A stretch of DNA of 64,000 nt from an uncultured Clostridia bacterium (GCA_934132895.1 CAKPAG010000004.1:37846-101845); one strand, 5' to 3'. Shown: positions 20,024 through 62,386, counted from the first letter of the stretch. Notes: generated by a model not told the origin, from the sequence alone. A program made the numbers and translations.

Positions 20024-22007
20024 ATGGCAAATAAATTAGTAATTGTTGAGTCACCTTCAAAAGCAAAAACAATAAAAAAATATTTGGGAAGTGATTATGA
20101 AGTAATTGCATCACAAGGTCATGTAATAGACTTGCCAGCAAGTAGAATGGCTGTTGATGTAGAACATAACTTTAAACCAGAATATATAACTATGAAGGGA
20201 AAAGCAAAGATAATAAATGAAATAAAAAAACAAGCAAAAGGAAAAGAAAAAATATATCTTGCAACCGACCCCGACCGTGAGGGAGAAGCAATAGCTTGGC
20301 ATTTAAAAAATGTGCTAAATATTCCAGATGATGAAAAGTGTAGAATTACTTTTAATGAAATAACTAAAACAGCAGTTAAAAAAGCTGTTAAAGAGGCAAG
20401 GAACATTGATGAATCATTAGTAGAAGCACAACAAGCAAGAAGAATTTTAGATAGAATAGTGGGATATAAATTATCACCTTTGCTTTGGAAAAAAATAAAA
20501 AAAGGACTTAGTGCAGGGCGTGTTCAATCTGTTGCATTAAAAATAATAGTGGATAGAGAAAAAGAAATAAGAGCATTTAAACCTGAAGAGTATTGGTTGC
20601 TTTCTGCTAAATTGGATAAACAAAATCAAGAGGTTATTGCTAAGTTTTACGGTGATAAAAGTGGAAAAATAGATTTAAAAAATAAAGAGCAAGTGGAAAA
20701 TATTGTATCAAAAATAGAAAATAAAGATTATATAGTAGAAGATATTAAAAAAAGTGAAAGAAAGAAAAATCCGCCACCACCATTTACAACATCTTCTTTG
20801 CAACAAGATGCAGCAAGAAAATTAGGTTTTACTGTTAAAAAAACAATGATGGTTGCTCAAAGACTTTATGAATCAGGATATATAACATATATGAGAACTG
20901 ACTCTACTAGGATTTCTGATGATGCAAGAAAAATGGCAGCTGAATATATAAAATCAACATTTGGCGATAAGTATTATTTAAATAGAGTATTTAAAACTAA
21001 AGATACTGCTCAAGATGCACACGAAGCTATAAGGCCTAGTAATTTGAGTAATAAGGATGAAGTTTTAAATAGTACAAGTAAAGATGAACAAAAATTATAT
21101 ACGTTAATATTAAATAGATTTCTAGCAAGTCAAATGGCAGTGGCAGTATATGATACTACTAAAGTAACACTGAATGTTAATAATTACATATTTAATATTA
21201 ATGGTAGCGTTATAAAATTCGATGGATATATGAAATTATATATCGAGTCTAAAGACGAAAAAAATAAAGAAAACGATGATAATAAAATACTACCAGAGTT
21301 TAGTATAGGAGAAGTGTTAATTCGGTAAAGAATTAATAAAAGAGCAAAAATTTACTGAACCTCCTGCAAGATATACAGAAGCAAGTTTAGTAAAAGTAAT
21401 GGAAGAAAAAGGAATAGGGAGACCAAGTACATATGCTCCAACTATTTCAACTATAATAGATAGATTATATATTGAAAGACACGAAAAACACTTAGTACCA
21501 ACTGAACTTGGTGAGATAGTTAATACCTTAATGGAAAATAATTTTAAAGATATAGTTGATGTTGGTTTTACAGCTGATATGGAACATAAACTTGATATGG
21601 TAGCTGAAAACAAAGAAAATTATATTGAAATGCTAGATGAATTCTATAAACCATTTATAAAAAATCTAACAGAAGTTGAAGATAAGATAAAAAAAGTGGA
21701 AATACCTGATGAAGTATCAGATGAGGTATGTGAACTTTGTGGCAGAAATATGGTTATAAAACAAGGAAGATTTGGAAAATTTTTAGCATGTCCTGGATAT
21801 CCAGAATGTAAAAATGCCAAACCAATTATTCAAACAATTGATGTACCATGTCCAAATTGTGGTGGAAAGATTTTAGTAAAGAAGACTAAAACTAAAAGAA
21901 CTTTTTATGTTTGTGAAAATAACACAAATAAAGAAGATAGTAAGTGTGATTATATTTCTTGGACTAAGCCTAAGAAAGGAAAATCTACTAAAAAGGAAAG
22001 TAAATAA
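20024..22007 (+). CDS. topA: DNA topoisomerase I, reading frame interrupted by a single-base frameshift near 21318-21328
   Basis: The N-terminal 434 aa (Toprim, GYITYMRTDS active-site region) end at 21328. The frame +1 continues from 21321 as FGKELIKEQKFTEPPARYTEASLVKVMEEKGIGRPSTYAP... through Zn ribbons to 22007. Removing one T in TTAATTCGG restores a single protein of about 690 aa. Confidence 0.85.
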
Positions 22008-27715: not shown

Positions 27716-27831
27716 ATAAAGAATTAAACATTTTCATTTAATTTTCATATAACTCTCATATAATTCACATTAAAAAAGTATATACTAAACCTAGTGGTAT
27801 AAAAAATAAAATATACAAGGAGATGATTTTA

Positions 27832-29667
27832 GTGAAAAAAAGTATAAAAAACATAAGCATAAGTTTATTATCAATACTTATGATAGTTGCAATAATTGTT
27901 ACAATAAACTTAGCCAAAGGAACTAATAAAATGACAGAGGGCAGTAATACTCCACCAGAAATGCCACAGGGAGAGATTCCAAATAGTCAAAATGGTCAGA
28001 ATATGCCAAGTGGAAGTACGGAAACTCCACCAGAGAAACTATCAGGAGATAATAACAAAAATAATCAAAACAATCAAAATGATGGTACTACTCAAGATAA
28101 TAGTAATAACATGACACCACCTAGTATGCCACAAGGAAATGGAAGTAATCAAAATGGTATGCAACCTATGAATAATATGGAAAGTATGAATGGTGAAGAT
28201 AATCAGATTTCATCATATTACTATGTTGCATTTGGAATAGAAGGATGTATTTTAGCACTTTCTTTAATGTATTTGGTTATGTCTAACTTAAATAATAAAT
28301 CATTTAAAGAAACGTTTTCATCTAGTGACAAAACCGTTATATATCTACTAGCAGTTACTGTAATAACAATTATACTAGTATTTGTAGCCTCTAGTGTTAC
28401 TAAAAATTTAAATAGTGATGAAACATCTAACGGTAATCCAAGTAACATGCCTATGGGGCAAAATTCAAATAGTAATATAACTTATTCTTCGGTTAAGGAA
28501 GTTACAGAAGATGAAGATATAACAAGCGGTAACTTTGAAAGTAGTGAAAAAGATCAGAATGCATTAGGAGTAAATGGAGAAGTAAATGCAAATATATCAG
28601 GTGTAACTGTTAATAAAACAGGAGATTCTGATGGAGGAGATAATACTAGTTTTTACGGTACTAATTCAGCTATTATTGCAAGAGGAAAAGCAAATCTTAT
28701 TTTAAAAAATATAGAAGTTACAACAAATGCTACAGGTGCTAACGGAGTATTTTGTTATGGAGGTTCAGCTACTACAAATAATCAAAGTGGTGATGGTACT
28801 AAAATTGTAATAAGTGATTCTAAAATAACAACTACTAAAGACAATTCTGGCGGAATTATGACCACTGGAGGCGGAGAAATGGAGGCTTCTAATTTAGAGA
28901 TAAATACAGCAGGAGTGTCAAGCGCAGCTATTAGAACAGATAGAGGCGGTGGTAATGTAACAGTAAATGGTGGTACATATACTACAACAGGTCAAGGTTC
29001 TCCTGCCATATATTCCACAGCTAATATAAAAGTTAGTGACGCAAGTTTAATTTCGAAAGCATCAGAAGGAGTAGTAATTGAAGGAAAGAATTCTGTTTCA
29101 TTAACAAATTGTAAATTAGTAGATAGTAATACTAAATTAAATGGTCAGTCAACAACATACAAAAATATATTTTTGTATCAGTCTATGAGCGGCGATGCTG
29201 CAGAAGGAACATCTTCATTTGTAGCTAAAGATAGTGAAATTACAACAAATAATGGAGATTTACTTTATGTTACAAATACAACTGCAACAATTACTTTAGA
29301 AAATAACAAATTAGTAAATAATGATGAAAATGGAAATTTCTTAAGAGTACAAAAAGACTCTTGGGGAAATAGTGGTAGTAATGGAGGAGAAGTTACTTTA
29401 AATTTAAAAAATCAAGAGGCTAAAGGAAGCATTGTAATTGATAGTATATCAACTCTAGTTATGAATGTTACTGATAATTCATATTATGAAGGAACAATAA
29501 ACAACGAAAATCAAGCTAAAAGTATAAGCTTAAAACTAGATAGTTCTTCAAAGATAAAACTAACTAAGGATACATATGTGTCTTCATTTGAAGATGAAGA
29601 TAGTTCATATAGCAATATAGATTTTAATGGATACAAGCTATACGTAAATGGTAAAGCAATAAATTAG
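27832..29667 (+). CDS. Membrane protein with a Pro/Gln/Asn-rich low-complexity region, a second TM and a probable extracellular beta-helix repeat domain (DUF4097/adhesin-like)
   Basis: Start chosen at the GTG at 27832, 9 nt after AAGGAG. Repeated MPQG motifs; a TM at YYYVAFGIEGCILALSLMYLV; then Gly/Thr/Asn-rich repeats typical of parallel beta-helix proteins. Confidence 0.5.
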   Translation: MKKSIKNISISLLSILMIVAIIVTINLAKGTNKMTEGSNTPPEMPQGEIPNSQNGQNMPSGSTETPPEKLSGDNNKNNQNNQNDGTTQDNSNNMTPPSMPQGNGSNQNGMQPMNNMESMNGEDNQISSYYYVAFGIEGCILALSLMYLVMSNLNNKSFKETFSSSDKTVIYLLAVTVITIILVFVASSVTKNLNSDETSNGNPSNMPMGQNSNSNITYSSVKEVTEDEDITSGNFESSEKDQNALGVNGEVNANISGVTVNKTGDSDGGDNTSFYGTNSAIIARGKANLILKNIEVTTNATGANGVFCYGGSATTNNQSGDGTKIVISDSKITTTKDNSGGIMTTGGGEMEASNLEINTAGVSSAAIRTDRGGGNVTVNGGTYTTTGQGSPAIYSTANIKVSDASLISKASEGVVIEGKNSVSLTNCKLVDSNTKLNGQSTTYKNIFLYQSMSGDAAEGTSSFVAKDSEITTNNGDLLYVTNTTATITLENNKLVNNDENGNFLRVQKDSWGNSGSNGGEVTLNLKNQEAKGSIVIDSISTLVMNVTDNSYYEGTINNENQAKSISLKLDSSSKIKLTKDTYVSSFEDEDSSYSNIDFNGYKLYVNGKAIN

Positions 29668-31251: not shown

Positions 31252-32043
31252 ATGAATAATTCTAATTTTTATTTTAAATCCCGGGTCGAGTATTTAAAGG
31301 AAATGCCAAAGGATGAAGGTTTTTATGAATATTTAGCTGATTCATATGATTATGAGAAAGAAAGAGTGTTAGCTGATATAAAAGATGAAGATGAACTTTT
31401 GGAAATGGCATTAGACTATAATTTAAGGCTTGATACTGATTTCTTGGAGAAGGTAATAGATAAAATTACTTCTGAAGAAAAGTTACTTGATATTGTAAAT
31501 AAAGCTTATGCTGAAGAGTGTAGAAAATATGCTTTAAGCAAAATATCTAATCAGAAAATATTGGAAAAAATAGCTTTAGAAGATAAAAGATGGGGAATGA
31601 AGTTTGATGCCATAAAAAGATTAGAAAGTAAGGAAGTACTTGAAAAAATAGCTGAAAATGATAAAGATTTTGATATAAAGGTACTTGCTTTAAAGAGGCT
31701 TATAGGCGAAGGAGAAAAAACTGGTTTTAAAGACGAAATTATATTAGATTTAGTTGAAAAAACCACCAATCAAAAAATATTGGCAAATTTTGCTCAAAAG
31801 GACTCTTATATACAAGTTCGAAGTGTAGCTTTAAAAAGATTAACTGATAAAGAACTTTTGAAAGAAGTAATATCTAGTTATATCGGTGTTGAAAATGAAA
31901 AAGATGATTTCTGGATTTTAATTTTTTCAAAAATACAAGAATTAGATAATCAAGTTGCTTGTGATTTAATAAAAAATATAAAGAAAAAATCAGAGGATTG
32001 GTATATTAAAAGATTGTGTGATGACATGTTGAAAAACGTGTAA
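31252..32043 (+). CDS. Hypothetical protein with HEAT/PBS-lyase-like helical repeats
   Basis: 263 aa. Repeated units of about 30 aa (..ILEKIA..D....V...ALKRL..). Confidence 0.45.
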   Translation: MNNSNFYFKSRVEYLKEMPKDEGFYEYLADSYDYEKERVLADIKDEDELLEMALDYNLRLDTDFLEKVIDKITSEEKLLDIVNKAYAEECRKYALSKISNQKILEKIALEDKRWGMKFDAIKRLESKEVLEKIAENDKDFDIKVLALKRLIGEGEKTGFKDEIILDLVEKTTNQKILANFAQKDSYIQVRSVALKRLTDKELLKEVISSYIGVENEKDDFWILIFSKIQELDNQVACDLIKNIKKKSEDWYIKRLCDDMLKNV

Positions 32044-39131: not shown

Positions 39132-39399
39132 TTGTTATAAAGTTAAGTAGAAAACTTTGAGTAAATTATATAGTAAATTTGAACTAAATTAAAAATAACT
39201 CAGAAAACTTGGAAGATGCATCTTAGTGATTATTGCGTTATTTTTTATAGTATATTTATTAAAGATATTTCAGCCCTAAAATTACAGTAAAGCTGTTGCA
39301 AGAAATTTAATTTTGATATATAATTTAAACTATATATATAAGAATTTTGAAGATAATAAAAATATACAAAAAATCAAAATTAAAAGGAGAGAAAAAACT

Positions 39400-40491
39400 A
39401 TGAAAACTAGAAAAACTAGTGAAAAAAGTGGGATATCATTAATAGTGTTAGTAATAACAATAATTGTAATTATAATATTGGCAGTAGCAGTAATATTATC
39501 AATTGTAAATAACAATCCAATTGAAAATGCAAAAGAAGCAGAATTTAAAAATGACGTAAAAACAATGCAAGAAGAACTAGATTTATTAAAATCAAGTAAC
39601 TACGCTAAAAATAATGGAGAGAACTATAATAATTTAGACGGAACACCAATAACAATATCACAGTTACAATCAGCAAGTAAATATCAAGGCGATTTTACAG
39701 TAAAATATGGAGGATTATACATAAAAAGTGAAAATAATTTAACAGCAAATGAAACAATATTAGCAGATGAGTTGGGAGTAGTAAGATTAATAAATAAAAC
39801 TGATTCAAAAGTTGGAAGTTATGCAGACATAAATGGAGATGGAAAAGTAGATGGAGTAATCTATGCAGACTTAGCAGAAACTGTAAGTGGTCAGTGGGGC
39901 GACAGTACTGTAACATTCTCATATGAAAAAGAAGAAGAAACAAAAGATTATTATGTGAGTGGAAGTTATAAAGGAGTATTTTCAGACGACGAAAAAGAAG
40001 TAATAAGTGTGGTAGATAGCTCAATAGGAAAAGAAAGATTTTATGTAATGACATTAAATAGTTTTTATACAGAAACATCAACGACTTTCTATTGGTATAA
40101 GGGTGCATGTGAAAAAGGAATAGTTGATTGGAGAAAGCTGACATTAACAGAATTTGGAACAGGAAAAGAAAATACACAAACTATGATAAAAAAATGGAGT
40201 AACAGTGAATATGGTGGAAAAGATGCTGGACAACAGCCAGATATGTGGGGAGTAATAAAAGAAGAGGTAGATAAAGGATGGTATGTACCATCGAAAGGAG
40301 AATGGGCAGCATTTTTGTGTAATTTAAGTATTACATCAGATAATTATATAAAAAAAGGTTTGCCGGGGTATTGTTGGTCTTCTTCACTGGGGGATAACAG
40401 CTATGCTTGGATCCCTTTCTTTAGCAATATGTCAATGGGACTTAGTCGCATCGATAATTACGCATATCTTTATTTGAGTACAACTTTTTAA
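39400..40491 (+). CDS. N-terminally membrane-anchored protein with a C-terminal DUF1566 (Lcl C-terminal-like) domain
   Basis: TM segment ISLIVLVITIIVIIILAVAVIL. C-terminal GWYVPSKGEWAAF...GYCWSSSLGDNSYAWIPFFSNMSMG resembles the W.LPT..E...GYYWSST...AW DUF1566 signature. Start at the ATG at 39400 after AAGGAG. Confidence 0.5.
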   Translation: MKTRKTSEKSGISLIVLVITIIVIIILAVAVILSIVNNNPIENAKEAEFKNDVKTMQEELDLLKSSNYAKNNGENYNNLDGTPITISQLQSASKYQGDFTVKYGGLYIKSENNLTANETILADELGVVRLINKTDSKVGSYADINGDGKVDGVIYADLAETVSGQWGDSTVTFSYEKEEETKDYYVSGSYKGVFSDDEKEVISVVDSSIGKERFYVMTLNSFYTETSTTFYWYKGACEKGIVDWRKLTLTEFGTGKENTQTMIKKWSNSEYGGKDAGQQPDMWGVIKEEVDKGWYVPSKGEWAAFLCNLSITSDNYIKKGLPGYCWSSSLGDNSYAWIPFFSNMSMGLSRIDNYAYLYLSTTF

Positions 40492-40908
40492 TTTTATAAA
40501 AAATTGGTAGTGATATGTGAAAGTTGTGGAGGACATTTTAACTTAGGACCAATAAGATTTTGTAAAAAGTTATTAACTTTAACTAAAAATATATGTAATA
40601 ACAGAAAAAGCATTAAACAAAAGCAAGTATTGATAATAAAAATCAAAAAGGCAAATCAAGAAGTATATTATAAATAAATTATGTATTTTAAAAAAGGTAT
40701 AAAAATAAAAAAAATAACGTAAGGGAGCTTAGATAATATATCTTAGTCTTTCTTGCGTTTTTAATTTAATTATAAACAGTAACTCAAAATTTTAAAAAAG
40801 AAATAAAAATTTAAAATTTTATGTATTTAGTTATTGCTATTTGATTTAGTTTATAGTAAAATATATAGTATATTAGTATAATTAAAGAAAATTAGAGAGG
40901 AAATTATT

Positions 40909-41232
40909 ATGGTTTACAAAAAAATAACAATAACCGCAGTAGTTATTGCAATAATAGCTGCAGTAGTTAGTAATTTTACTTTTGCAGCAGTAGATATAAC
41001 TACAAATGATAAAATAATGGATTCAACAATGAATATTTTAATATTTTTACAAAAATATTCTTGGCCAGTTGTAACTTTAATATTCATTTATGCACTGTAC
41101 CAATTTTATGTTGCAGGTTCTGAGATATTAGAAAGTAAAATAATAGGTCAAAGGTTGATAGTGGGAATAGCAATATTTATGGTAATATTGCAATGTTTAC
41201 CACTTGTTTATGCATTTTTAACCGTTAAGTAG
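40909..41232 (+). CDS. Small membrane protein: signal peptide plus two TM helices (VirB2/TrbC-pilin-like topology)
   Basis: 107 aa. N-terminal hydrophobic segment ending ..FTFAA, then two hydrophobic helices. First gene of a compact three-gene cluster. Confidence 0.4.
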   Translation: MVYKKITITAVVIAIIAAVVSNFTFAAVDITTNDKIMDSTMNILIFLQKYSWPVVTLIFIYALYQFYVAGSEILESKIIGQRLIVGIAIFMVILQCLPLVYAFLTVK

Positions 41233-41265
41233 ATTTACGTAGAGGGAAGAAGAGGTAAAAAACAT

Positions 41266-42963
41266 ATGAAGGTTCTTTTTGGAATAAATAATGATGATAC
41301 TGTAAAAGGTATAGTGTCTTTTTATAACGAAAAATATAATGAAAAGTTAGAATATAAAAATGTATATTATTTTAAACAATTTATACAGGAATTAGCAAAT
41401 GGCGGATATGATAGAGCAGTTCTTTTAGAAGAGCTTGAAAAATTTCCGACAACTAATTATGCACAAATAGATGACTATCTTTTTAAAAATATTGACAATA
41501 TGACAGATGTTTATGATGCTAAAAGCATTGTATATATTGCATCTGATAGAAGAAAACACGGTGATGAATATCTTTCTAAATTATTTAACTTAGGAATGTA
41601 TACCGTTCTTACAGGTCAAGATAGAACAAAAGGAAAAGTTTGTGAAGCAATTCATAAACCACTTTTGAAAAAAGATGTAAAAAAATATTACGAAGATGTT
41701 GTAGGGGAAAATGTATATAAAAGCGCTGAAGTATCAGAAATTGAAATTCAAAGAATAATATCTTATTATAAAAATCAAAATGGAAATACAGATAAATATA
41801 ATGAAATATTTGATAGAATTTCTACTCAATATACAAACGAACAATTAAGAGTAATATGCAATTTCTTACCTGTTGACGTTAAACAATATCTTGCTATGAA
41901 CAGTGAAAAGTATAAAAACATTATGATGCTTCCGGATAATTATTCTGTTCAAGTAATGGAACCTCAAGCAGGTGAACGTAAACCAAAGGAAATATTATCA
42001 AAAGATAGAGATGCAAATGCAGTTCAAATCAAAAAAGATTCTAATATGGCTGAAAGAATAGTAGTACAACAAGTTCCTCAAGAAAGAGTTGTTACTCAAG
42101 TGGTTGAAAAAGAAGTACTAAGAAATGTATATGAGGTACCTAAAGATTATAAGAAAACAGTTTGTTTTGTGGGAGCACCAAAGGTTGGAACTACATTTTG
42201 TATAAACGCAATAGGAACGTATCTTGCACGTAATAAGGTAAAAACAGCAATAGTTGATTTAACTAGAAAAAGAGATACATATACTATTTATACTTATGAT
42301 AGTGAAGGAAAAAGACATATAGCAGCTGAGAGTTTAAAATATGCTTCAAATGGACTAAATGAACCTTTGGTATATGATAAACTAAGCATATATACTGGAA
42401 TGCCAGGTGAAGATAGAAAAACATACAACTCTAGTGTAGTAATGGAAACTGTACTTCAAAATAACAACGCAGTTTTAATAGATACAGACTTTACAACACC
42501 TGTAGATTATTTTAGACAATGTCAAGAAATATATATTGTTCAAGATATGGATATATTAAACATTAATCAACTTACTATGTTTTTAAGGAACCTAAAATCA
42601 AAGGGTATTTCTATGCAAAAGCTAAGGGTAATAATTAACAAGCATGTTAAATGTGTACTTACTGCAAAAGATATTTTAGATGGAATTGCTACATACACAA
42701 GTTATGATTTAAAAATGTATGATGAGTTATTCAATTCATCTTCAATTCCATATTACATTTTACCTTTTGATATTGATAACTATAGAAAGTATGTTGAAAT
42801 GGTATATAAATATTCAAATAAATTTGCTACTTTCTCAGATGACTTTAAACAAAATTTAGAAAAAATTATAAATTCTATATATCCTGTATCTGGTAGAGTT
42901 AATGTAGGTACTAATAATACTTATTCTAGCCAAGGTTCAAGAAGAGGAATATTTAGAAAATAG
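41266..42963 (+). CDS. Protein with an N-terminal pseudo-receiver-like domain and a C-terminal MinD/ParA-fold domain carrying a degenerate Walker A
   Basis: 565 aa. MKVLFGINNDD... has a REC-like fold but lacks the acidic triad. VCFVGAPKVGTTFCINAIGTYLA aligns to the deviant Walker A (xKGGxGKTT) but without the lysines. AIVD and LIDTD correspond to the A' and Walker B motifs. Confidence 0.45.
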   Translation: MKVLFGINNDDTVKGIVSFYNEKYNEKLEYKNVYYFKQFIQELANGGYDRAVLLEELEKFPTTNYAQIDDYLFKNIDNMTDVYDAKSIVYIASDRRKHGDEYLSKLFNLGMYTVLTGQDRTKGKVCEAIHKPLLKKDVKKYYEDVVGENVYKSAEVSEIEIQRIISYYKNQNGNTDKYNEIFDRISTQYTNEQLRVICNFLPVDVKQYLAMNSEKYKNIMMLPDNYSVQVMEPQAGERKPKEILSKDRDANAVQIKKDSNMAERIVVQQVPQERVVTQVVEKEVLRNVYEVPKDYKKTVCFVGAPKVGTTFCINAIGTYLARNKVKTAIVDLTRKRDTYTIYTYDSEGKRHIAAESLKYASNGLNEPLVYDKLSIYTGMPGEDRKTYNSSVVMETVLQNNNAVLIDTDFTTPVDYFRQCQEIYIVQDMDILNINQLTMFLRNLKSKGISMQKLRVIINKHVKCVLTAKDILDGIATYTSYDLKMYDELFNSSSIPYYILPFDIDNYRKYVEMVYKYSNKFATFSDDFKQNLEKIINSIYPVSGRVNVGTNNTYSSQGSRRGIFRK

Positions 42964-43002
42964 TAAAGAATATAACGAACATAAGAAAAGGGGATAAAAA
43001 AA

Positions 43003-44073
43003 TTGAATTATTCAATATGCATATTATTTTTAATAATAATAGTACTAGTTATTATGGTATTGGCTATTGATTATGATTATAAAAAGAAATTAAAAAAAGT
43101 TTCAAGTGATTCTAATGTATTATTAAATTATTTGTCACAAGAAATGCTTAAAATAACAAGCCTAGATATTAAGGCAATAGAAAAATTAGAAAAATTTAAT
43201 AATATTTTAAAAACTAGATTGAAAGTAGATTATTCTACAATATGTTTATATGATGGGAATAATTTTGAAATTAAAGCAAGTAATATAGATGAAACATATA
43301 GAGATTCTATAAAAGATATAGTTGAGGATGCAAATTTTAAATATGCAATTTTAAAAAGGAGTGTTAAATATCTTACAGTAGATAACGATAAAACATTGTT
43401 ATATAAAAGTGCTATTGAAAGAAATATAAAAACAGCAATACTATTACCACTTTGCTTTGAAAATAATTTCTTAGGATTTGTGTTATTGGAGTGTAAGAAA
43501 GCAAATGTTTTAAGTGAAATAATAGATGAAGATTTAATAGAACTTAGTAAAAACATTTCTAATTTTGTTGAGAATGTTGAATTTCAAAATACAATAGAAT
43601 CAGCAAATGTTATTGATACTCAAACTTCATTTTATAATAATGTATATCTATATACTAATGTAAGAAAAGTTTTAGCTTCATATAATACATCTGCAATGGT
43701 AGTTGTTAAACTTTCAAATTTACCTAATATAAATGATATATATAATAGAAATGTTGGTAATCTTTTACTTGTAAAACTTGCTAATACTACTAAAGATATA
43801 CTAGGAGAAGACAATATATACATAAGATATAGCGGCTTAAGATTTATAGTATTTGTCAAAGATTCAAATGCTGAGGCAGTACAACCAAAAGTAGAATTAT
43901 TATTATCAAAATATAAAAATATATACGAGTATGTTGATGATGAAAAGGTATCAATAGATACTCAAATACTTATACATACTTTAAGAAAACAGAATAACAT
44001 TGAAAAAGAAATACAAAAAACAATGTCATATATTGATTGGATGAAAGCATCAAATACAATAAAAATAATTTAA
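43003..44073 (+). CDS. Membrane-anchored GAF-like plus degenerate GGDEF-domain protein
   Basis: N-terminal TM. FLGFVLLE is GAF-like. IRYSGLRFIVF aligns to RYGGEEF with GGEEF replaced by SGLRF (predicted inactive cyclase). The I-site RxxD is also absent (GEDN). Confidence 0.45.
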   Translation: MNYSICILFLIIIVLVIMVLAIDYDYKKKLKKVSSDSNVLLNYLSQEMLKITSLDIKAIEKLEKFNNILKTRLKVDYSTICLYDGNNFEIKASNIDETYRDSIKDIVEDANFKYAILKRSVKYLTVDNDKTLLYKSAIERNIKTAILLPLCFENNFLGFVLLECKKANVLSEIIDEDLIELSKNISNFVENVEFQNTIESANVIDTQTSFYNNVYLYTNVRKVLASYNTSAMVVVKLSNLPNINDIYNRNVGNLLLVKLANTTKDILGEDNIYIRYSGLRFIVFVKDSNAEAVQPKVELLLSKYKNIYEYVDDEKVSIDTQILIHTLRKQNNIEKEIQKTMSYIDWMKASNTIKII

Positions 44074-44137
44074 TATAAATTTAATGTATATTAAATTAAT
44101 TAAAAATATATTATATATAGTAAAGGAGTGATTTTTT

Positions 44138-44383
44138 ATGGATCAAAATACAACAGTATTTACACCACAAAAAGATGAATCAAAAAGAGTAAGAGAGATA
44201 ATGGAACAAGTAGTTGCTGCATTAAAAGATAAAGGATATGAACCTGTAAGTCAAATTATAGGGTATATACTATCTGGTGACCCAACTTACATTACATCTC
44301 ATCAAAATGCTAGAGCTTTAATCTGCAAAATTGAAAGAGATGATCTTTTACAAGAAATGATTAAAAAATACTTAGGAATATAA
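44138..44383 (+). CDS. ireB: IreB-family regulatory phosphoprotein (UPF0297)
   Basis: 81 aa. VREIM.QVVAALKDKGYEPVSQIIGYILSGDPTYITSHQNAR matches the YrzL/IreB family. Lies upstream of ruvX, as in Bacillus. Confidence 0.75.
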   Translation: MDQNTTVFTPQKDESKRVREIMEQVVAALKDKGYEPVSQIIGYILSGDPTYITSHQNARALICKIERDDLLQEMIKKYLGI

Positions 44384-44386
44384 CTT

Positions 44387-44809
44387 ATGAAAAGAATACT
44401 TGCAATAGATTATGGTGATGTAAGAGTAGGTTTAGCTGTTTCTGATGTATTACATATAACAGCTCAAGGAATAGATACTTTAGTTATAAATAAAAGTGAT
44501 AAGAAATTTATTTCTGGAATAAAAAAGGTGGTTAGTGATTATGATGTAGATACTATAGTAATAGGATATCCTAAAAATATGGATGGAACCTTATCAGAAA
44601 AAGCTAAAAAAGTAGATACATTTATCCCAGTATTAGAGGGGATTGTTCCAAATGTATATAAATGGGATGAAAGACTTACTACTGTTTCAGCATATAAAAC
44701 AATGAGAGAACTTAATATATCTCAAAAAAATAAAAATACGTATGCTGATAAACTAGCAGCAACATATATTTTAGAGGGATATCTTTTAAAAATTTCGAAT
44801 AATAAATAA
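44387..44809 (+). CDS. ruvX: Putative pre-16S rRNA nuclease / Holliday-junction-resolvase-like RuvX (YqgF)
   Basis: MKRILAIDYGDVRVGLAVSD is the N-terminus, with an RNase H-like fold. 140 aa. Confidence 0.85.
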   Translation: MKRILAIDYGDVRVGLAVSDVLHITAQGIDTLVINKSDKKFISGIKKVVSDYDVDTIVIGYPKNMDGTLSEKAKKVDTFIPVLEGIVPNVYKWDERLTTVSAYKTMRELNISQKNKNTYADKLAATYILEGYLLKISNNK

Positions 44810-44884
44810 ATTTAAGGAAAAAATATATACAAAATACATATTCTAGTGTATAATGTAACTACTAAAGATTAGGAGGAATAAAAA

Positions 44885-45250
44885 ATGGATAAAGAAGAAT
44901 TAAATGGTTGCGCAGCTGGATGTGCTAGTTGTGCAGGATGTGGACATGATCATGGACATGACATGGAACTTCCAGATGATTTTAGTCCTGTAATAACACT
45001 TACAGATGAAGACGGTCAAGATGTTCAATTTGAAATACTTGATGTAGTTGTAATGGACGATGAAAAAGAATATTTAATCGTTTCAGAAGCAACTGATGAA
45101 GAAAAAGAAGATGTAGAAGTTGTAATTCTTGAAATAAAACAAGAAGATGGTGAAGAAGTTTACGATACTGTTACTGATGAAGAAATAGGTAAGGCAGTAT
45201 TTGATAGATTTGTAAGCCAACAACAAGAACTTGATAACGAAGAAGAATAA
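44885..45250 (+). CDS. DUF1292-family acidic protein with a Cys/His-rich N-terminal extension
   Basis: 121 aa. CAAGCASCAGCGHDHGHD, then the acidic DUF1292-like body (ITLTDEDGQDVQFEILDVV..). Conserved position after ruvX, like B. subtilis yrzB. Confidence 0.65.
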   Translation: MDKEELNGCAAGCASCAGCGHDHGHDMELPDDFSPVITLTDEDGQDVQFEILDVVVMDDEKEYLIVSEATDEEKEDVEVVILEIKQEDGEEVYDTVTDEEIGKAVFDRFVSQQQELDNEEE

Positions 45251-45379
45251 ATTTTAAAAAATATCTTGTGCTTAAATTATATTGCATAAGATATTTTTCT
45301 TTACTTTTGAGAAAATTATGGTATAATACTGTAAATAAATATATAAATACTTGTTTAATAAAAAAGGAGGAAAATTATT

Positions 45380-45943
45380 ATGAAATATTTTAAAAAATTA
45401 GTTGGAGAAAGAATATACTTATCTCCACTTAGTACAGAAGATTATGAACAATATGTTGAATGGTTAAATGATTTTAAAGTATCAGATGGAATAGGTTCTA
45501 GTGCAAATGTTGCCACAATTTCTTCTGAAAAAGAATGGCTTGAATCAAGTTCAAAGTCAAATAATTATCCTTTTGCAATTGTAAGTTTAAATGAAAATAA
45601 ACTTCTAGGAAATTGTGGCTTGAACAATGTGAATTTCATTCGTAGAACAGCTACACTCGGTATATTTATAGGAAATGAAGAAAAAAGAGGCTTAGGAATC
45701 GGTAAAGAAGCAATAAATTTAGTACTTGATTATGCCTTTAATTATTTAAACTTAAATAATGTAATGTTAAATGTATTTTCATTTAATGAAGGAGCAATAA
45801 AATGCTATAAAAGTGTAGGCTTTAAAGAATTTGGTAGAAGAAGAGAGGCGTACTTCTTAAATGGAAAATATTATGATGATGTGCATATGGATATTTTAAA
45901 ATCTGAATTTAAAGGAAGCTATATATTAAACAAAAACATATAA
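45380..45943 (+). CDS. GNAT-family N-acetyltransferase (RimJ/RimL-like)
   Basis: 187 aa. The acetyl-CoA binding motif region is GNEEKRGLGIGKEAINLVLDYAF. Confidence 0.75.
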   Translation: MKYFKKLVGERIYLSPLSTEDYEQYVEWLNDFKVSDGIGSSANVATISSEKEWLESSSKSNNYPFAIVSLNENKLLGNCGLNNVNFIRRTATLGIFIGNEEKRGLGIGKEAINLVLDYAFNYLNLNNVMLNVFSFNEGAIKCYKSVGFKEFGRRREAYFLNGKYYDDVHMDILKSEFKGSYILNKNI

Positions 45944-47730: not shown

Positions 47731-48971
47731 GTGAAAGTAATAGTAGTTGGAGGTGGAGCTGCACGGAATGATGGCAGCTATAACCGCAGCAAGAGAAAAT
47801 AATGAAGTTACTTTAATAGAAAAGACGTCTTCACTTGGAAACAAAATAAAAATAACTGGAAAAGGTAGATGTAATTTAACCTTTGATGGAGATTTAGAAG
47901 ATTTTAAAAGAAACATTGTAAAAAACTATAAATTCATGTACAGTTCATTTAATAATTTTACTAATAAAGATGTAGTAAGTTTCTTTGAAAGTCATGGAGT
48001 AAAGACAAAAGTGGAAAGAGGCGGAAGAATATTTCCAGTTTCAGACAGTGCTTTAGACATAGTAAAAGCTTTAGAAAAAGAACTAAAAAAACAAAAAGTT
48101 AACATTTTATTAAATACTAGTATTAAAGAAGTTTTAACTTGCAATAATATAGTTACAGGGATAAAACTTGAAAATGGGAAAAATCTAGAATGCGATAAAT
48201 GTATAATTGCAACTGGAGGAAAAAGCTTTCCTAAAACAGGAAGTGTGGGAGATGGTTACAAGTTAGCTAAAAAACTAGGAATAGATATTGTAGATATAAC
48301 ACCTGGGCTTGTACCACTTAGAAGTAATGATAAAGAAGTAAAAGAGTTACAAGGACTATCTTTGAAAAATGTATCTTTTAAATTAATAGATGAAAACAAA
48401 ACAATTTATGAAGATTTTGGAGAGCTTATGTTTGCACATTTTGGACTGACGGGACCAGTTGTACTTAGTTCAAGTAGTGTTTTAAATAGGATAGATAACT
48501 TAAAAGAAAAATTAAAGTTAGGTAAAATATTTGCTATAATTGATTTAAAGCCAGCTCTTTCTTTTGAAGTATTAGACAAAAGAATATGTAGAGATTTTGA
48601 AAAATATACAAATAAGGAGTTTAAAAACAGTTTAAATGATTTGTTACCACAAAAGCTAATTCCAGTAATAATTAAGAATTCAGCCATAGATGAAAACAAA
48701 AAAGTAAATCAAATAACTAAAGAGGAAAGAAAAAGATTAACTGAATGTATTAAAAATTTAAGGGTTAATATATCAGATTTAATGCCTTTAGAATTAGCTA
48801 TAATTACTTGCGGTGGAATAAATGTAAAAGAAATAAATCCTAAAACTATGGAATCTAAAAAAATAAGCGGGTTATACTTTTGTCGGAGAAATATTGGACA
48901 TAGATGCATACACTGGAGGATATAATTTACAAATAGCTTTTTCTACTGCAGTAGCTGCTGGTAAAAATTAA
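47731..48971 (+). CDS. HI0933-like (BaiN/YhiN) NAD(P)/FAD-dependent flavoprotein, frame broken at two places (about 47764 and about 48886)
   Basis: The GTG at 47731 gives VKVIVVGGGAA, then an extra C (GCACGGA) shifts to the track frame (GMMAAITAARENNEVTLIEK). At the 3' end, KISGLYF is followed, after an extra T in TTTT, by VGEILDIDAYTGGYNLQIAFSTAVAAGKN*, the conserved family C-terminus. The restored protein is about 413 aa. Confidence 0.75.
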
Positions 48972-51003: not shown

Positions 51004-51693
51004 TTATTTAATTTCTTCTTTTAAGTCAGGATATGCCTTGATAAATTCTATTGTTTTACCTTTTCCATTTTCATCTTCATAATAGTAAATATATGAATCT
51101 TTTGTTTCTTTTTTTAATCTTACATTTATTAATCTGACAATAGAACAATTACCGTTATATATTTTATTAAAGTTTTTATCAATGTCTTTTATAAACGGTG
51201 CATTTTCTTTTCTTGCTTCATTAAATACTTTTATATAAACATCAGCAATTTCTCTATTTTTATTTAATTCTTCTTGTAATTTTTTATTTATTTCTAATTT
51301 ATCTACGTTGTCAACAGAAGATAAGATAGAAGTGGATGTATTTATATTTACAGCACTACCTATTTCTGGAATAAATGTTAGCTTTACCGCCCAATAATTA
51401 TCACCTTCTTTTATAACTGCAGTTTGCTTAGCATATTCATATTTTGATAACCATTTAATTAAGTTATATATACAATATATTATATAAGTTATAGCACCAA
51501 CCAAAATAATAGGCCATAGAAAATCTAGTAAATCTCCTAATCCTATTAAAAGTAAAAAAATGGGTCCGAATAAAGCAATGCAAAATGCTAATGATATGTA
51601 TATAATCACCATTCTAATTTTTGTATTAGGATCTTTATCAGTATAGCAGTTATTCTTTATTGCTTCTTCTTTATTATACATAAATACTTTCAT
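51004..51693 (-). CDS. Hypothetical membrane protein (2 N-terminal TM plus a soluble domain)
   Basis: 229 aa. Confidence 0.45.
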   Translation of the reverse strand: MKVFMYNKEEAIKNNCYTDKDPNTKIRMVIIYISLAFCIALFGPIFLLLIGLGDLLDFLWPIILVGAITYIIYCIYNLIKWLSKYEYAKQTAVIKEGDNYWAVKLTFIPEIGSAVNINTSTSILSSVDNVDKLEINKKLQEELNKNREIADVYIKVFNEARKENAPFIKDIDKNFNKIYNGNCSIVRLINVRLKKETKDSYIYYYEDENGKGKTIEFIKAYPDLKEEIK

Positions 51694-52476: not shown

Positions 52477-53502
52477 ATGGTAAGTGATAAAGAAGTAAAA
52501 ACTGTAGTTTCACCATTTGCGGTGAGAGAAAATGAAGTAAAAGTTTTTGATGGGAAAGAAGGATTTGCCTCAATTAATCAGGTAGTATTCAAAATGGATA
52601 TGGGCTATATAAACGAATACCATATAAAAGCATTAGAAGTTGTAAATGAATTTGGTTTTGTAACTTCTAGACAAGTAACACAAGTACTTGATGTAAGAGG
52701 AAAATTAAACGATATTGAAGAAGATAAAAAACAAAATAAAGTAGCAAAGTGGTTAGAAGATTTAACAAAATCTAAAGTAATAGCTCGTTATTTCTTCCAA
52801 AGTGAATCTGGAAAAAGTTCATATAGAGCATATGCTATGGATAAGATTGCAACATATATATTAAAACAAAGAAATATTCCTACAACTTGGCAACCAACAG
52901 ATAATACAAAACCAGCATATGCTGTAAAAAGGAAATTAGCTGGTAACCAAATTATAATCGCATATATGCAAAAAGTTGCTGCTTTTGAAGAAGTTAACCC
53001 AAATATATTATTATTTTCAAAAAAATATAATGTAAAATTTAAACCAACTGGTGGAATGGTAACTTTAAAAAATGGTGCTGATGAGTTAAACTTTGTATTT
53101 GAAGTTGTAAGAAGAAATGAAGATTGGCAAAATATGTTTGCTGAAAAAGTACAATTATATTCTGATTTTTATGAGAATTTTGCAAGAAATGACGCAGGTT
53201 TTTATAACCCACCACAAGTAGTTTTTGTTGGAGAAGATGTTCAACATATTGCTGAAATGTTTAGAATTATAAAAAAGGTAAGTACAACTTTGAAGGATGA
53301 AGATATGTATTTTACAACTGAACTTAAACATTTGGAACCAACTTTAGAAAATTCAATTAGTGTCTTTGAAGTAGATAATGATAGCAAAAAATATAAACTT
53401 GTTACAAAACATTTAGATATATTAAAACCAGGTGAATCTACTACAAATGGAAATAAACTAAATACTGATATGAAATTTAATTCTAACATGATAATTGAAT
53501 AA
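52477..53502 (+). CDS. Hypothetical wHTH protein, possibly replication-relaxation family (PF13814-like)
   Basis: 341 aa. YHIKALEVVNEFGFVTSRQVTQVL resembles the N-terminal winged helix of plasmid/ICE replication-relaxation proteins. Sits where cggR would be expected, upstream of gap. Confidence 0.4.
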   Translation: MVSDKEVKTVVSPFAVRENEVKVFDGKEGFASINQVVFKMDMGYINEYHIKALEVVNEFGFVTSRQVTQVLDVRGKLNDIEEDKKQNKVAKWLEDLTKSKVIARYFFQSESGKSSYRAYAMDKIATYILKQRNIPTTWQPTDNTKPAYAVKRKLAGNQIIIAYMQKVAAFEEVNPNILLFSKKYNVKFKPTGGMVTLKNGADELNFVFEVVRRNEDWQNMFAEKVQLYSDFYENFARNDAGFYNPPQVVFVGEDVQHIAEMFRIIKKVSTTLKDEDMYFTTELKHLEPTLENSISVFEVDNDSKKYKLVTKHLDILKPGESTTNGNKLNTDMKFNSNMIIE

Positions 53503-61411: not shown

Positions 61412-62386
61412 ATGAATAATTGCTGTAATAATCATAACTGTTGTTGCAAAATAATTGGTCCAAAGGGAGAACAAGGCCCTGCGGGACCACAAGGTTCTGC
61501 GGGATCACAAGGCCCTACAGGACCACAAGGCCCTACAGGACCTACTGGTGCAACAGGATTACAAGGAATAAAAGGAGAAAAGGGAGAAGTCGGACCAGTT
61601 GGCCCACAAGGTGAAAAGGGAGAAAGAGGTATACAAGGTCCATCAACCATTAGTGTTGGTGATACTGAAACAGTATCTTCTAACATGGTAGCTGAAGTGA
61701 CAAATGTCGGTACAAAAGAAGATTTAGTATTAAACTTTAAAATACCAAAAGGCGAAAAAGGAGATAAAGGAGATCAGGGAGAAAAAGGTGATGTTGGTCC
61801 AAGAGGCTTACCTGGGGAAATTGGAAGAACGGAACATATTTCAATAGGTGAAACAGAAACTATTGGACCTGGTGAACCGGCTCAAGTTTTAGATGATTTC
61901 GAAAATATGGTACACAACCTTACATTTTATATTCCTAAAGGAGAAAATGGAGGAGGACCTACCTCGTTTAGTGCAATAGTATTTGCTGAATACGATGATA
62001 CAAATGAATCCAAGCCTTTAACAATAAACGAAAAAATATTATTACCAGAAGCAACACCTATATTTAAAGTTCCAAATTTAACAGATATAGATGTTCTAGT
62101 AACTGGAATTTATGAGATAATGCTGTGTGGAAAGATTTCAGGGGTAACTCAGGCTAATGGAGCTAAATTTTTACTTTTGAATAAAACAACAGGAACTGTT
62201 ATAGATAACTTAACGTTTGAGTTAAAAGAAGGAATAACTTCAGACATGACATTTTCAGGAACTACTGTGGTACAAATTTTTGCCCCAGCTTCTTTTGAGG
62301 TAAGAAGTACGATTAGCAATGATCCAACTACTGCTAAAATTGCATTTTATGATATGAGGCTAACAATGAAAAAATACAATGTTTAA
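61412..62386 (+). CDS. Collagen-like triple-helix-repeat exosporium-type glycoprotein (BclA-like)
   Basis: 324 aa. Cys-rich N-terminus MNNCCNNHNCCCK, about 40 G-x-x triplets in two blocks, and a C-terminal beta-rich (C1q/TNF-like) domain. Confidence 0.75.
   Translation: MNNCCNNHNCCCKIIGPKGEQGPAGPQGSAGSQGPTGPQGPTGPTGATGLQGIKGEKGEVGPVGPQGEKGERGIQGPSTISVGDTETVSSNMVAEVTNVGTKEDLVLNFKIPKGEKGDKGDQGEKGDVGPRGLPGEIGRTEHISIGETETIGPGEPAQVLDDFENMVHNLTFYIPKGENGGGPTSFSAIVFAEYDDTNESKPLTINEKILLPEATPIFKVPNLTDIDVLVTGIYEIMLCGKISGVTQANGAKFLLLNKTTGTVIDNLTFELKEGITSDMTFSGTTVVQIFAPASFEVRSTISNDPTTAKIAFYDMRLTMKKYNV

What the first reader, a model, noticed from the sequence alone, without database searches (positions are those of the whole stretch)
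40909..44073. Compact three-gene module of apparent pseudo-enzymes
Three genes are tightly spaced and co-oriented. First, a 107-aa protein with a signal peptide and two TM helices (pilin/VirB2-like topology). Second, a 565-aa protein with a receiver-like N-terminal domain lacking the phospho-acceptor triad, plus a MinD/ParA-fold domain whose Walker A (GAPKVGTT) has lost both lysines. Third, a membrane-anchored GAF protein whose GGDEF motif is SGLRF and which lacks the I-site. All three catalytic signatures are degenerate. This suggests a scaffold or signalling assembly, for example positional regulation at the membrane, and not an enzymatic pathway. I do not recognise this combination as a described system.
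Basis: inference. Interest (0 to 1): 0.6.

Follow-up and report, generated by a model that had tools for sequence, protein, structure and literature searches.

The report
Orphan TadZ-like membrane scaffold operon
Three co-oriented genes encode a small membrane protein, a divergent pilus-hub-like (TadZ/CpaE-type) protein whose ATP-binding loop has lost its usual lysines, and a membrane-anchored sensor with a dead cyclase domain; the trio is conserved across an uncultured group of gut Clostridia, belongs to no named family, and has no experimentally known role.

Summary
All three ORFs exist at the stated coordinates, and each claimed feature was verified.

- **A (107 aa):** a signal-like segment followed by two hydrophobic helices. 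It matches no protein family.
- **C (356 aa):** a TM helix, a GAF domain and a GGDEF domain. The GGDEF motif is SGLRF and there is no RxxD.

The order A-B-C-ireB-ruvX-DUF1292 is kept in 57 of 62 species genomes. The deep core is the A-B pair; C is missing in several lineages.

Distant A-B pairs sit directly upstream of Tad-like genes (cpaB, a MinD-like gene, cpaF), including on a Clostridium botulinum plasmid.

The B-family P-loop GxxKxGT[TS] is conserved, so it is not decaying. TadZ proteins also lack the canonical lysine.

My best reading is a chromosomally fixed, TadZ-derived membrane scaffold, possibly a slow nucleotide-dependent switch. The function is inferred, not shown. I class it as a new variant of a known kind, of moderate interest.

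The parts
40909..41232 (+). Gene A. A 107-aa small membrane protein with a signal-like N-terminal segment (residues 5-27, ...TFA|A) and two hydrophobic helices (about 52-69 and 79-105). The helices are joined by a short conserved loop, G-S-E-x-L-E-x-K-x-x-G-Q-R. Conserved motifs are Q-K-Y-S-W-P and Q-x-L-P-L.
   Evidence: ORF and translation. Hydropathy. Family alignments. No significant Pfam or NCBIfam match. Found directly upstream of B in 60 of 62 species loci by tblastn. phmmer also finds it in L066 and L067.
41266..41925 (+). Gene B, N-terminal region (residues 1-220). Residues 1-120 form a receiver-like beta-alpha domain, with E55/E56 where the phospho-acceptor Asp would sit. Residues 121-220 form a helical subdomain.
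41926..42135 (+). Gene B, low-confidence linker (residues 221-290). In relatives this is a highly variable disordered region of 44-878 aa.
   Evidence: pLDDT below 50 for residues 224-292. Linker lengths across 94 two-domain representatives. Linker compositions.
42136..42885 (+). Gene B, C-terminal MinD/ParA-fold domain (residues 291-540).
42172..42195 (+). Deviant P-loop G303-A-P-K306-V-G308-T309-T310. A304 aligns with MinD K11 and T309 with MinD K16. The family consensus is G-x-x-K-x-G-T-[TS].
   Evidence: hhalign against E. coli MinD. Motif census over 126 family C-domains. Coordinates checked.
42886..42960 (+). Gene B, C-terminal tail ending in RRGIFRK. A basic-hydrophobic motif [KR][KR]xG[ILF]F[KR] is conserved in distant members (RRGLFG, KKKGLF, KKRGFF, NKFFGRRK). 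It resembles a MinD membrane-targeting sequence.
   Evidence: Alignment A1. Sequences of distant members. The resemblance to the MinD tail is my own reading of the sequence.
43003..44073 (+). Gene C. A 356-aa protein made of an N-terminal TM helix (residues 1-28), a GAF domain (about 58-165), a long connecting helix (175-201) and a degenerate GGDEF domain (204-338).
43831..43845 (+). Degenerate active-site motif S277-G-L-R-F281, in place of GG[DE]EF. All 63 orthologues recovered carry S/T/M-G-x-[RK]-[FLIV]. No RxxD lies upstream.
   Evidence: Orthologue motif census. Coordinates.
44138..45250 (+). Conserved downstream neighbours ireB (44138-44383), ruvX (44387-44809) and DUF1292 (44885-45250). 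No terminator-like site lies between gene A and these genes.
   Evidence: Pfam. Synteny. Terminator scan found none in 40400-45500.

Best explanation
A, B and C form a conserved chromosomal operon that encodes a membrane-associated, largely non-catalytic assembly. It derives from the TadZ/CpaE-type hub proteins of Tad-like pilus or secretion loci.

**What is shown**
- B has the TadZ architecture: an atypical receiver domain plus an atypical MinD/ParA domain. It also carries a helical subdomain, a disordered linker and a basic-hydrophobic C-terminal tail.
- B's P-loop lacks both MinD lysines but is a conserved variant, GxxKxGT[TS].
- A is a small hairpin membrane protein that always accompanies B.
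- C is a TM-GAF protein with a catalytically dead GGDEF domain. It accompanies A-B in most lineages, but not all.

**What is inferred**
- B dimerises through its MinD-like domain, possibly on binding a nucleotide, with little or no hydrolysis.
- B is held at the membrane by A's conserved cytoplasmic loop and/or by its own C-terminal tail.
- B uses its receiver-like domain and linker to recruit partners to a defined place on the envelope.
- C adds a ligand-sensing input through its GAF domain and acts as an adaptor, not as a cyclase.
- The A-B unit stays glued to ireB (an IreB/ReoM-type regulator of peptidoglycan synthesis) even where B identity falls to about 35-44%. The process being organised in this lineage is therefore more likely cell-envelope growth, division or sporulation than pilus assembly.
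For: **Architecture of B**
- Both lysines are lost.

**The P-loop is a maintained variant**
- The loop is conserved across 126 family members.
- It is shared by the Tad-linked relative P0269, which has GDRKAGTT.
- The TadZ consensus K/RGGXGXS/T also lacks the canonical lysine.

**Conservation and synteny**
- The order A<B<C<ireB is kept in 57 of 62 species genomes.
- Median identity to the window protein is 68% for B, against 70% for RuvX and 57% for DUF1292. B is therefore under housekeeping-level constraint.
- The A-B-ireB order also holds in distant lineages whose B proteins are 792-1164 aa long.

**Link to Tad-like loci**
- Tad-linked A-B pairs occur in L070, L072 and the C. botulinum plasmid p12/29.

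**C is not a cyclase**
- Every orthologue has S-G-x-[RK]-[FL].
- The fold is GAF plus GGDEF.

**Transcription unit**
- No terminator-like site lies across the cluster.

**IreB/ReoM role**
- Its role in peptidoglycan control is described in PMC7286690.
Against: - There are no experimental data for any member of these families.
- The B model has only moderate confidence (pLDDT 59.6), and the relative orientation of its domains is unreliable.
- The A-B and B-C contacts, membrane binding by the tail, and dimerisation were not tested.
- Adjacency to ireB could be inherited synteny without a functional link.
- K306 inside the P-loop might restore real ATPase activity. B would then be an enzyme and not a scaffold.
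- No sequence-level match ties B to curated TadZ/CpaE models.
Confidence: 0.5

Rival explanations
1. A-B(-C) is an orphan accessory unit of a Tad-type pilus or secretion machine encoded elsewhere in the genome. B would act as the machine's localisation hub, like TadZ/CpaE. A would be a pilin-like or platform-associated membrane subunit.
For: - Distant A-like and B-like pairs lie directly upstream of cpaB/rcpC, an AAA_31 MinD-like gene and a T2SSE (CpaF/TadA) gene in L070 and L072.
- A similar cluster lies on a C. botulinum plasmid.
- B. thuringiensis plasmid BTB_502p has a cluster with the same gene order.
- B has the TadZ architecture.
- A's topology resembles VirB2-type pilins.
Against: - The 64-kb window contains no T2SSE, CpaB or TadZ-type gene.
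- The chromosomal subfamily always sits next to ireB-ruvX, not next to secretion genes.
- The Tad-like loci carry a second, conventional MinD-like gene next to cpaF, so B-like proteins are not the only TadZ candidate there.
- A has no Flp or T4SS-pilin family match.
Confidence: 0.2
2. B is a working nucleotide-driven positioning ATPase, a MinD/ParA-type switch with a rewired P-loop in which K306 takes over phosphate binding. A would be its membrane receptor or activator, by analogy with MinE or with CapA acting on CapB.
For: - K306 is conserved in most family members.
- The Walker B-like Asp (VLIDTD; D406 and D408 invariant) and D331 (aligned with MinD D38) are kept.
- The best PDB profile match is the CapA-activated kinase CapB.
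- The plasmid relative keeps GKS.
Against: - The canonical lysine is replaced by Thr in nearly all members, and the signature lysine is absent.
- The position aligned with MinD D40 is Thr.
- Some members lack K306 as well: GAPGIGTT, GAHGNGTS, GCSQSGVT.
- There is no C-terminal tyrosine cluster of the BY-kinase type.
Confidence: 0.15
3. The module is a c-di-GMP signalling unit. C would either make c-di-GMP or sense it and pass the signal to B, in the way FleN/FleQ or BcsQ/BcsE couple MinD-like proteins to c-di-GMP.
For: - C has a true GGDEF fold with a GAF sensor and a membrane anchor.
- This is the same domain order as in PelD-type receptors. That comparison is from my own knowledge; the Gram-positive Pel papers are listed.
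- MinD-like FleN and BcsQ are among B's structural matches.
Against: - The GG[DE]EF motif is S-G-x-[RK]-[FL] in all 63 orthologues, so synthesis is excluded.
- No RxxD I-site is present, and that is the known c-di-GMP binding site of degenerate GGDEF receptors (read directly from the sequence).
- C is dispensable in several lineages that keep A-B.
- There is no c-di-GMP riboswitch upstream.
Confidence: 0.1
4. The genes are decaying remnants of a mobile Tad-like or conjugative module and have no present function.
For: Relatives occur on plasmids and in Tad-like clusters. The catalytic motifs are degenerate.
Against: - The reading frames are intact in about 60 species.
- B is 60-89% identical across those species, comparable to RuvX.
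- There are dozens of invariant residues.
- The degenerate motifs are themselves conserved.
Confidence: 0.02

Closest known systems
TadZ/CpaE pilus-assembly hub proteins (for example Eubacterium rectale TadZ, PDB 3fkq, and the CpaE2 N-domain, PDB 4myr)
   Same: - Two-domain architecture: an atypical receiver domain followed by an atypical MinD/ParA domain.
- The canonical Walker A lysine is absent. The TadZ consensus is K/RGGXGXS/T.
- Structural matches to both domains.
- Distant family members lie in Tad-like loci.
   Different: - No sequence-level match to any curated TadZ, CpaE, AAA_31 or CbiA model.
- The P-loop is GxxKxGT[TS], without the K/R-G-G signature.
- B has an extra helical subdomain, a variable disordered linker (44-878 aa) and a basic-hydrophobic tail.
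- It is located next to ireB-ruvX on the chromosome, with no tad genes in the window.
- It has an obligate small membrane partner, A.
MinD/ParA-family positioning ATPases (MinD, FlhG, FleN, BcsQ, McdA)
   Same: - A Walker B-like Asp.
- A possible C-terminal membrane-targeting tail, like that of MinD and FlhG.
   Different: - Both the signature lysine (K11) and the catalytic lysine (K16) are replaced.
- The switch-I residue aligned with D40 is Thr.
- B is fused to a receiver-like domain through a disordered linker.
PelD-type and other degenerate-GGDEF receptors (membrane anchor, GAF, inactive GGDEF)
   Same: C has the same domain order: TM, GAF, then a catalytically inactive GGDEF.
   Different: - C lacks the RxxD I-site through which such receptors bind c-di-GMP.
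- It has one TM helix.
- There are no pel or other exopolysaccharide genes nearby.
VirB2/TrbC-type T4SS pilins and the small membrane subunits of Gram-positive conjugation systems
   Same: A has a signal-like leader plus two hydrophobic helices joined by a short charged loop. Tandem-duplicated A-like proteins occur in plasmid Tad-like or T4SS-like clusters.
   Different: There is no family-level sequence match. The window has no secretion ATPase or coupling protein. Cleavage and pilus formation are untested.
Split BY-kinases of Firmicutes (CapA membrane activator plus CapB kinase)
   Same: A two-TM membrane protein is encoded next to a MinD-like P-loop protein. CapB is the best PDB profile hit (E 4e-4).
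   Different: B has no Walker A lysine and no C-terminal tyrosine cluster. A lacks the extracellular domain and the cytoplasmic activating tail of CapA.

Membership tests
MinD/ParA (deviant Walker A SIMIBI ATPases) | MinD/ParA three-dimensional fold | tested here: met
   [not shown]
MinD/ParA (deviant Walker A SIMIBI ATPases) | Deviant Walker A xKGGxGK[ST], with a signature lysine and a catalytic lysine | tested here: not met
   hhalign places A304 at K11 and T309 at K16. The family consensus is GxxKxGT[TS].
MinD/ParA (deviant Walker A SIMIBI ATPases) | Walker B hydrophobic strand ending in Asp | tested here: met
   In VLID406TD408, both Asp residues are invariant. The stretch aligns with the CapB Walker B strand.
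MinD/ParA (deviant Walker A SIMIBI ATPases) | Match to a curated sequence model (Pfam CbiA, AAA_31 or ParA) at the gathering score | tested here: not met
   No Pfam or NCBIfam hit for B at E<=1. Relatives score 24.7 bits (P0125, just under the cut-off of 25.4) and 32.2 bits (plasmid protein L075).
TadZ/CpaE | Atypical receiver domain followed by an atypical MinD-like ATPase domain | tested here: met
   [not shown]
TadZ/CpaE | Walker-A-like motif K/RGGXGXS/T | tested here: not met
   B has G-A-P-K-V-G-T-T. It shares the missing canonical lysine but has no K/R-G-G.
TadZ/CpaE | Encoded in a tad locus next to cpaF/tadA and cpaB/rcpC | tested here: not met
   - None in the window.
- The feature is met only for distant family members in L070, L072 and L075.
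TadZ/CpaE | Polar localisation and recruitment of pilus components | not testable with these tools
   This needs microscopy or interaction assays.
Response-regulator receiver domain | (beta-alpha)5 receiver fold | tested here: met
   [not shown]
Response-regulator receiver domain | Phospho-acceptor Asp at the end of beta3, plus the conserved Thr/Ser and Lys | tested here: inconclusive
   - By secondary-structure register, E55/E56 sit at the end of beta3, S93 follows beta4, and no Lys follows beta5.
- No residue-level structural alignment was available.
- hhalign against CheY found nothing.
GGDEF diguanylate cyclase | GGDEF domain (sequence model and fold) | tested here: met
   [not shown]
GGDEF diguanylate cyclase | GG[DE]EF active-site motif | tested here: not met
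   The window protein has SGLRF. All 63 orthologues have S-G-x-[RK]-[FL].
Degenerate-GGDEF c-di-GMP receptors (PelD-like) | RxxD I-site five residues upstream of the GGDEF position | tested here: not met
   GEDN occupies that position in the window protein. No RxxD appears in the orthologue strings.
Degenerate-GGDEF c-di-GMP receptors (PelD-like) | Membrane anchor, GAF and inactive GGDEF architecture | tested here: met
   [not shown]
VirB2/TrbC or Flp pilins | Match to a pilin family model, or a Flp G/XXXXEY processing motif | tested here: not met
   There are no significant Pfam hits for 17 A-family members. No Flp motif is present in the sequence.
BY-kinase (CapB/Wzc) | Walker A lysine and a C-terminal tyrosine cluster | tested here: not met
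   T309 replaces the lysine. The tail ...TYSSQGSRRGIFRK has no Tyr cluster.

The most novel reading that the evidence does not exclude
A-B(-C) is a previously unrecognised envelope-positioning system that is universal in this group of uncultured, spore-forming gut Clostridia (the matching genomes include Clostridium sp. CAG:465, CAG:921 and CAG:1219).

- It would be a TadZ-derived hub that lost its pilus machine.
- It would be anchored by a dedicated hairpin membrane protein.
- It would carry a hyper-variable disordered linker that acts as a spacer or condensate-forming scaffold.
- It would work with the IreB/ReoM pathway to decide where peptidoglycan is made, covering division, elongation or forespore engulfment.
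- The GAF/dead-GGDEF protein would supply a small-molecule input.
Probability: 0.2. Interest if true: 0.7.

Novelty: new variant of a known kind. Interest (0 to 1): 0.5.

Why it matters
- The middle protein is as conserved as housekeeping genes across an uncultured Clostridia clade, yet every source calls it hypothetical and it matches no curated family.
- Placing it as a divergent TadZ/CpaE-type hub, with an obligate membrane partner, gives a concrete hypothesis that can be tested.
- It defines three protein families that could be added to the domain databases.
- It is a natural example of a secretion-system localisation factor moving to a housekeeping chromosomal context.
- The conserved GxxKxGT[TS] loop is an unusual P-loop variant. 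It deserves biochemical study to ask whether a lysine three residues upstream can stand in for the Walker lysine.
- The link to ireB, if functional, would bear on how Firmicutes control cell-wall synthesis in space.

Tried and rejected
**Searches that found nothing**
- Direct sequence searches with B against Pfam, NCBIfam and PDB, as a single sequence and as a close-homologue profile.
- hhalign of the B alignment against CheY. The receiver assignment therefore rests on fold alone.
- Rfam over the whole window and over the 417-nt leader upstream of A.
- A search for B in phage genomes.
- A Pfam scan of 17 A-family members, which gave only noise-level hits.

**Searches that were uninformative**
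- The promoter scan in this AT-rich DNA found 45 sites against 41 expected.
- A profile search with the C-domain alignment in the 5.8-billion-protein set returned only fragments and no named organisms.

- The afdb50 fold library was unavailable.
- The original TadZ structure paper is not held. I used a 2026 preprint for the TadZ motif.

**Ideas considered and rejected**
- *BY-kinase:* no Walker lysine and no Tyr cluster.
- *Active diguanylate cyclase:* the motif is dead in all orthologues.
- *Decaying mobile remnant:* the conservation is too strong.
- *The upstream 392-aa pseudopilin-like protein as part of the module:* it is not syntenic in other genomes.
Full report
**Observation**

All lie on the + strand and are separated by 33 and 39 nt. 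Each has a Shine-Dalgarno-like sequence upstream. The window is AT-rich (about 27% GC). It is ordinary chromosome from a spore-forming member of the Clostridia, with recA, groEL, spoVAD, spoIIP, a sigma factor, hflX, pfl/pflA and glycolysis genes. Directly downstream of C lie ireB, ruvX and a DUF1292 gene. No terminator-like site occurs between 40400 and 45500.

**Protein A**

Hydropathy shows an N-terminal signal-like segment (residues 5-27, preceded by KK and ending in TFA|A). Two further hydrophobic segments follow, at about 52-69 and 79-105. They are joined by a short loop whose sequence, G-S-E-x-L-E-x-K-x-x-G-Q-R, is conserved. The motifs Q-K-Y-S-W-P and Q-x-L-P-L are also conserved. A matches no Pfam or NCBIfam family. 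The 'VirB2-like topology' is a fair description of the hydropathy pattern and nothing more.

**Protein B: fold**

B has no hit in Pfam, NCBIfam or PDB sequences, even with a profile of close homologues. It has more than 1,600 homologues, all called hypothetical. A search of 1.84 billion cluster representatives found 481 clusters at E<=0.001.

An AlphaFold model has moderate confidence (pLDDT 59.6). It shows four regions:
- a (beta-alpha)5 N-domain, residues 1-120;
- a helical region, residues 121-220;
- an unstructured stretch, residues 224-292;
- a beta-alpha C-domain.

**Protein B: the P-loop**

hhalign against E. coli MinD placed G303-A304-P-K306-V-G308-T309-T310 on G10-K11-G-G-V-G-K16-T17. 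Both MinD lysines are therefore replaced. D331 aligns with D38 and T333 with D40.

The loop is not decaying, however. Across 126 family C-domains the consensus is G-x-x-K-x-G-T-[TS], with only a few variants (GAPGIGTT, GAHGNGTS, GCSQSGVT). The published TadZ motif, K/RGGXGXS/T, also lacks the canonical lysine. 'Pseudo-enzyme' is therefore not established. A nucleotide-dependent dimerisation switch with little turnover remains possible, as I recall was described for E. rectale TadZ (from memory, not checked here).

**Protein B: the receiver domain**

The receiver claim is supported at the level of fold only. By secondary-structure register, E55/E56 occupy the phospho-acceptor position, S93 follows beta4, and no lysine follows beta5. 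D10/D11 after beta1 remain. hhalign against CheY found nothing.

**Protein B: further features**

1. The linker between the two domains varies from 44 to 878 residues (median about 345) among 94 two-domain representatives. Its composition varies widely: acidic repeats, charged coiled-coil-like repeats, S/G/Y-rich stretches or Q/N-rich stretches.
2. The extreme C-terminus carries a conserved basic-hydrophobic motif: RRGIFRK here, and RRGLFG, KKKGLF, KKRGFF and NKFFGRRK in distant members. It resembles the membrane-targeting tail of MinD. That resemblance is my own reading and is untested.

**Protein C**

- Pfam finds a GGDEF domain (E 2.7e-12).
- A confident model (pLDDT 87.9) shows an N-terminal TM helix, a GAF fold, a long helix and a GGDEF fold.
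- The active-site motif is S277-G-L-R-F281.
- All 63 orthologues recovered have S/T-G-x-[RK]-[FL], so a basic residue is conserved where the catalytic Glu should be.
- No RxxD lies upstream.

C is therefore a conserved dead cyclase, and it lacks the usual c-di-GMP receptor site.

**Co-conservation**

A scan of one genome per species found 63 loci, all from uncultured Clostridia. They include Clostridium sp. CAG:465, CAG:921 and CAG:1219. Among the 62 loci with B:
- 60 have A by tblastn. phmmer also finds A in L066 and L067.
- 58 have C and 61 have ireB.
- 57 show the order A<B<C<ireB within 4.5 kb.

Median identity to the window proteins is 68% for B, 64% for A, 41% for C, 89% for IreB, 70% for RuvX and 57% for DUF1292. 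B is thus as constrained as its housekeeping neighbours.

In more distant lineages, the order A-B-ireB persists without C. This holds for B proteins of 792 and 921 aa, which share about 32-45% identity in the C-domain (L074 and L073; also L066, L067 and L034). Another distant member, 1,164 aa long, keeps C (L069). The deep unit is therefore A-B. C is a frequent but dispensable addition.

**Where the family comes from**

The most distant B-like proteins examined are P0269 and P0230. Each is preceded by an A-like protein that is a tandem duplication of the A hairpin. Each is followed by a CpaB/RcpC (SAF) protein. In L070 an AAA_31 MinD-like protein and a T2SSE (CpaF/TadA-type) ATPase come next, which makes it a Tad-like locus. 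The short L072 contig ends before those genes could be seen.

The same B-like N-domain (E 5e-37) and a duplicated A-like protein occur on the Clostridium botulinum plasmid p12/29, beside a T2SS/T4P/T4SS-family ATPase and cell-wall hydrolases. That B-like protein passes Pfam CbiA (32.2 bits) and keeps a GKS Walker lysine.

A cluster with the same gene order lies on B. thuringiensis plasmid BTB_502p: a receiver-like/MinD-like 'AAA ATPase', RcpC/CpaB, a second AAA ATPase and a T2SS/T4P/T4SS ATPase. Its link to B is only a weak tblastn match.

The window itself contains no such secretion genes.

**Interpretation**

*Shown:*
- B is a divergent TadZ/CpaE-type two-domain protein with a conserved lysine-less P-loop.
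- A is its constant small membrane companion.
- C is a TM-GAF-dead-GGDEF protein.
- The genes form a conserved cluster glued to ireB-ruvX.

*Inferred:*
- B is tethered to the membrane by A and/or by its own tail.
- B dimerises through the MinD-like domain and uses its receiver-like domain and disordered linker as a recruiting hub.
- C supplies a ligand input.

IreB/ReoM proteins regulate peptidoglycan synthesis under PASTA-kinase control (PMC7286690). The persistent adjacency suggests an envelope-related role, but this is guilt by association.

*Rivals:*
- an orphan accessory of a Tad machine encoded elsewhere;
- a truly active rewired ATPase;
- a c-di-GMP receptor module;
- a decaying relic, which the conservation makes very unlikely.

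**Comparison and novelty**

The closest known kind is TadZ/CpaE. The architecture and the missing catalytic lysine are shared. The following differ:
- the K/R-G-G signature is absent;
- the tad-locus context is absent;
- there is no sequence-model membership;
- B has a helical insert, a disordered linker and a tail;
- B has partners A and C.

I did not find this combination described. I rate it a new variant of a known kind, not a categorically new system. Interest is moderate. It offers three unannotated, well-conserved families, an unusual P-loop, and a testable link between a secretion-hub lineage and a housekeeping envelope locus.

Noticed in passing
window 20024-21328 and 21399-22007: A type IA topoisomerase (Toprim + Topoisom_bac, profile positions 2-306 of 411) ends after 434 aa, and a 202-aa ORF follows. 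The orthologue in a related genome is 648 aa. The gene looks split by a stop or frameshift, which could be a pseudogene or an assembly error.
   Followed up: no
window 47747-48925: The HI0933-like flavoprotein ORF is 392 aa with a TTG start and an odd C-terminus. Orthologues in related loci are 413-414 aa. It may be frameshifted or mis-started.
   Followed up: no
window 39313-40491: A 392-aa protein lies just upstream of the module. It has a single N-terminal TM segment and only a weak resemblance to the GspG pseudopilin N-terminus. It is not syntenic with A-B-C in other genomes, so it is not part of the module.
   Followed up: partly
window 27823-29667, 31252-32043, 51004-51693 (-), 52477-53502: Four sizeable ORFs (614, 263, 229 and 341 aa) have no Pfam match at the thresholds used.
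   Followed up: no
window 61412-62386: A protein with collagen triple-helix repeats, possibly an exosporium or surface filament protein, in a spore former.
   Followed up: no
P0137, P0127, P0201, P0181 (relatives of B): The linker between B's two domains is a hyper-variable low-complexity region of up to about 880 aa. Examples are acidic DDDLIPGxDDE repeats, EEARRQAEEE charged repeats, S/G/Y-rich tracts and Q/N-rich tracts.
   Followed up: partly
L070 7242-7985; L072 559-1287; L075 1351-2076: In Tad-like loci the A-like protein is a tandem duplication of the A hairpin (two matches to the A profile in each protein). This suggests that single-hairpin A works as a dimer.
   Followed up: partly
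L075 (C. botulinum plasmid p12/29, 19553-38206) and L076 (B. thuringiensis BTB_502p, 479496-493849): Plasmid clusters encode one or two receiver-like/MinD-like proteins next to a T2SS/T4P/T4SS-family ATPase. L076 also has an annotated RcpC/CpaB gene, and L075 has very large cell-wall hydrolases. They look like an uncharacterised Tad-like apparatus of Firmicutes plasmids.
   Followed up: partly
L001/L021 10240-13276: In one genome three genes (DUF218, Amidase_6 and a Cna_B surface protein) are inserted between B and C. The B-C junction therefore tolerates insertions.
   Followed up: no
window 1-64000: No Rfam family reaches its gathering score anywhere in the 64-kb window.
   Followed up: yes
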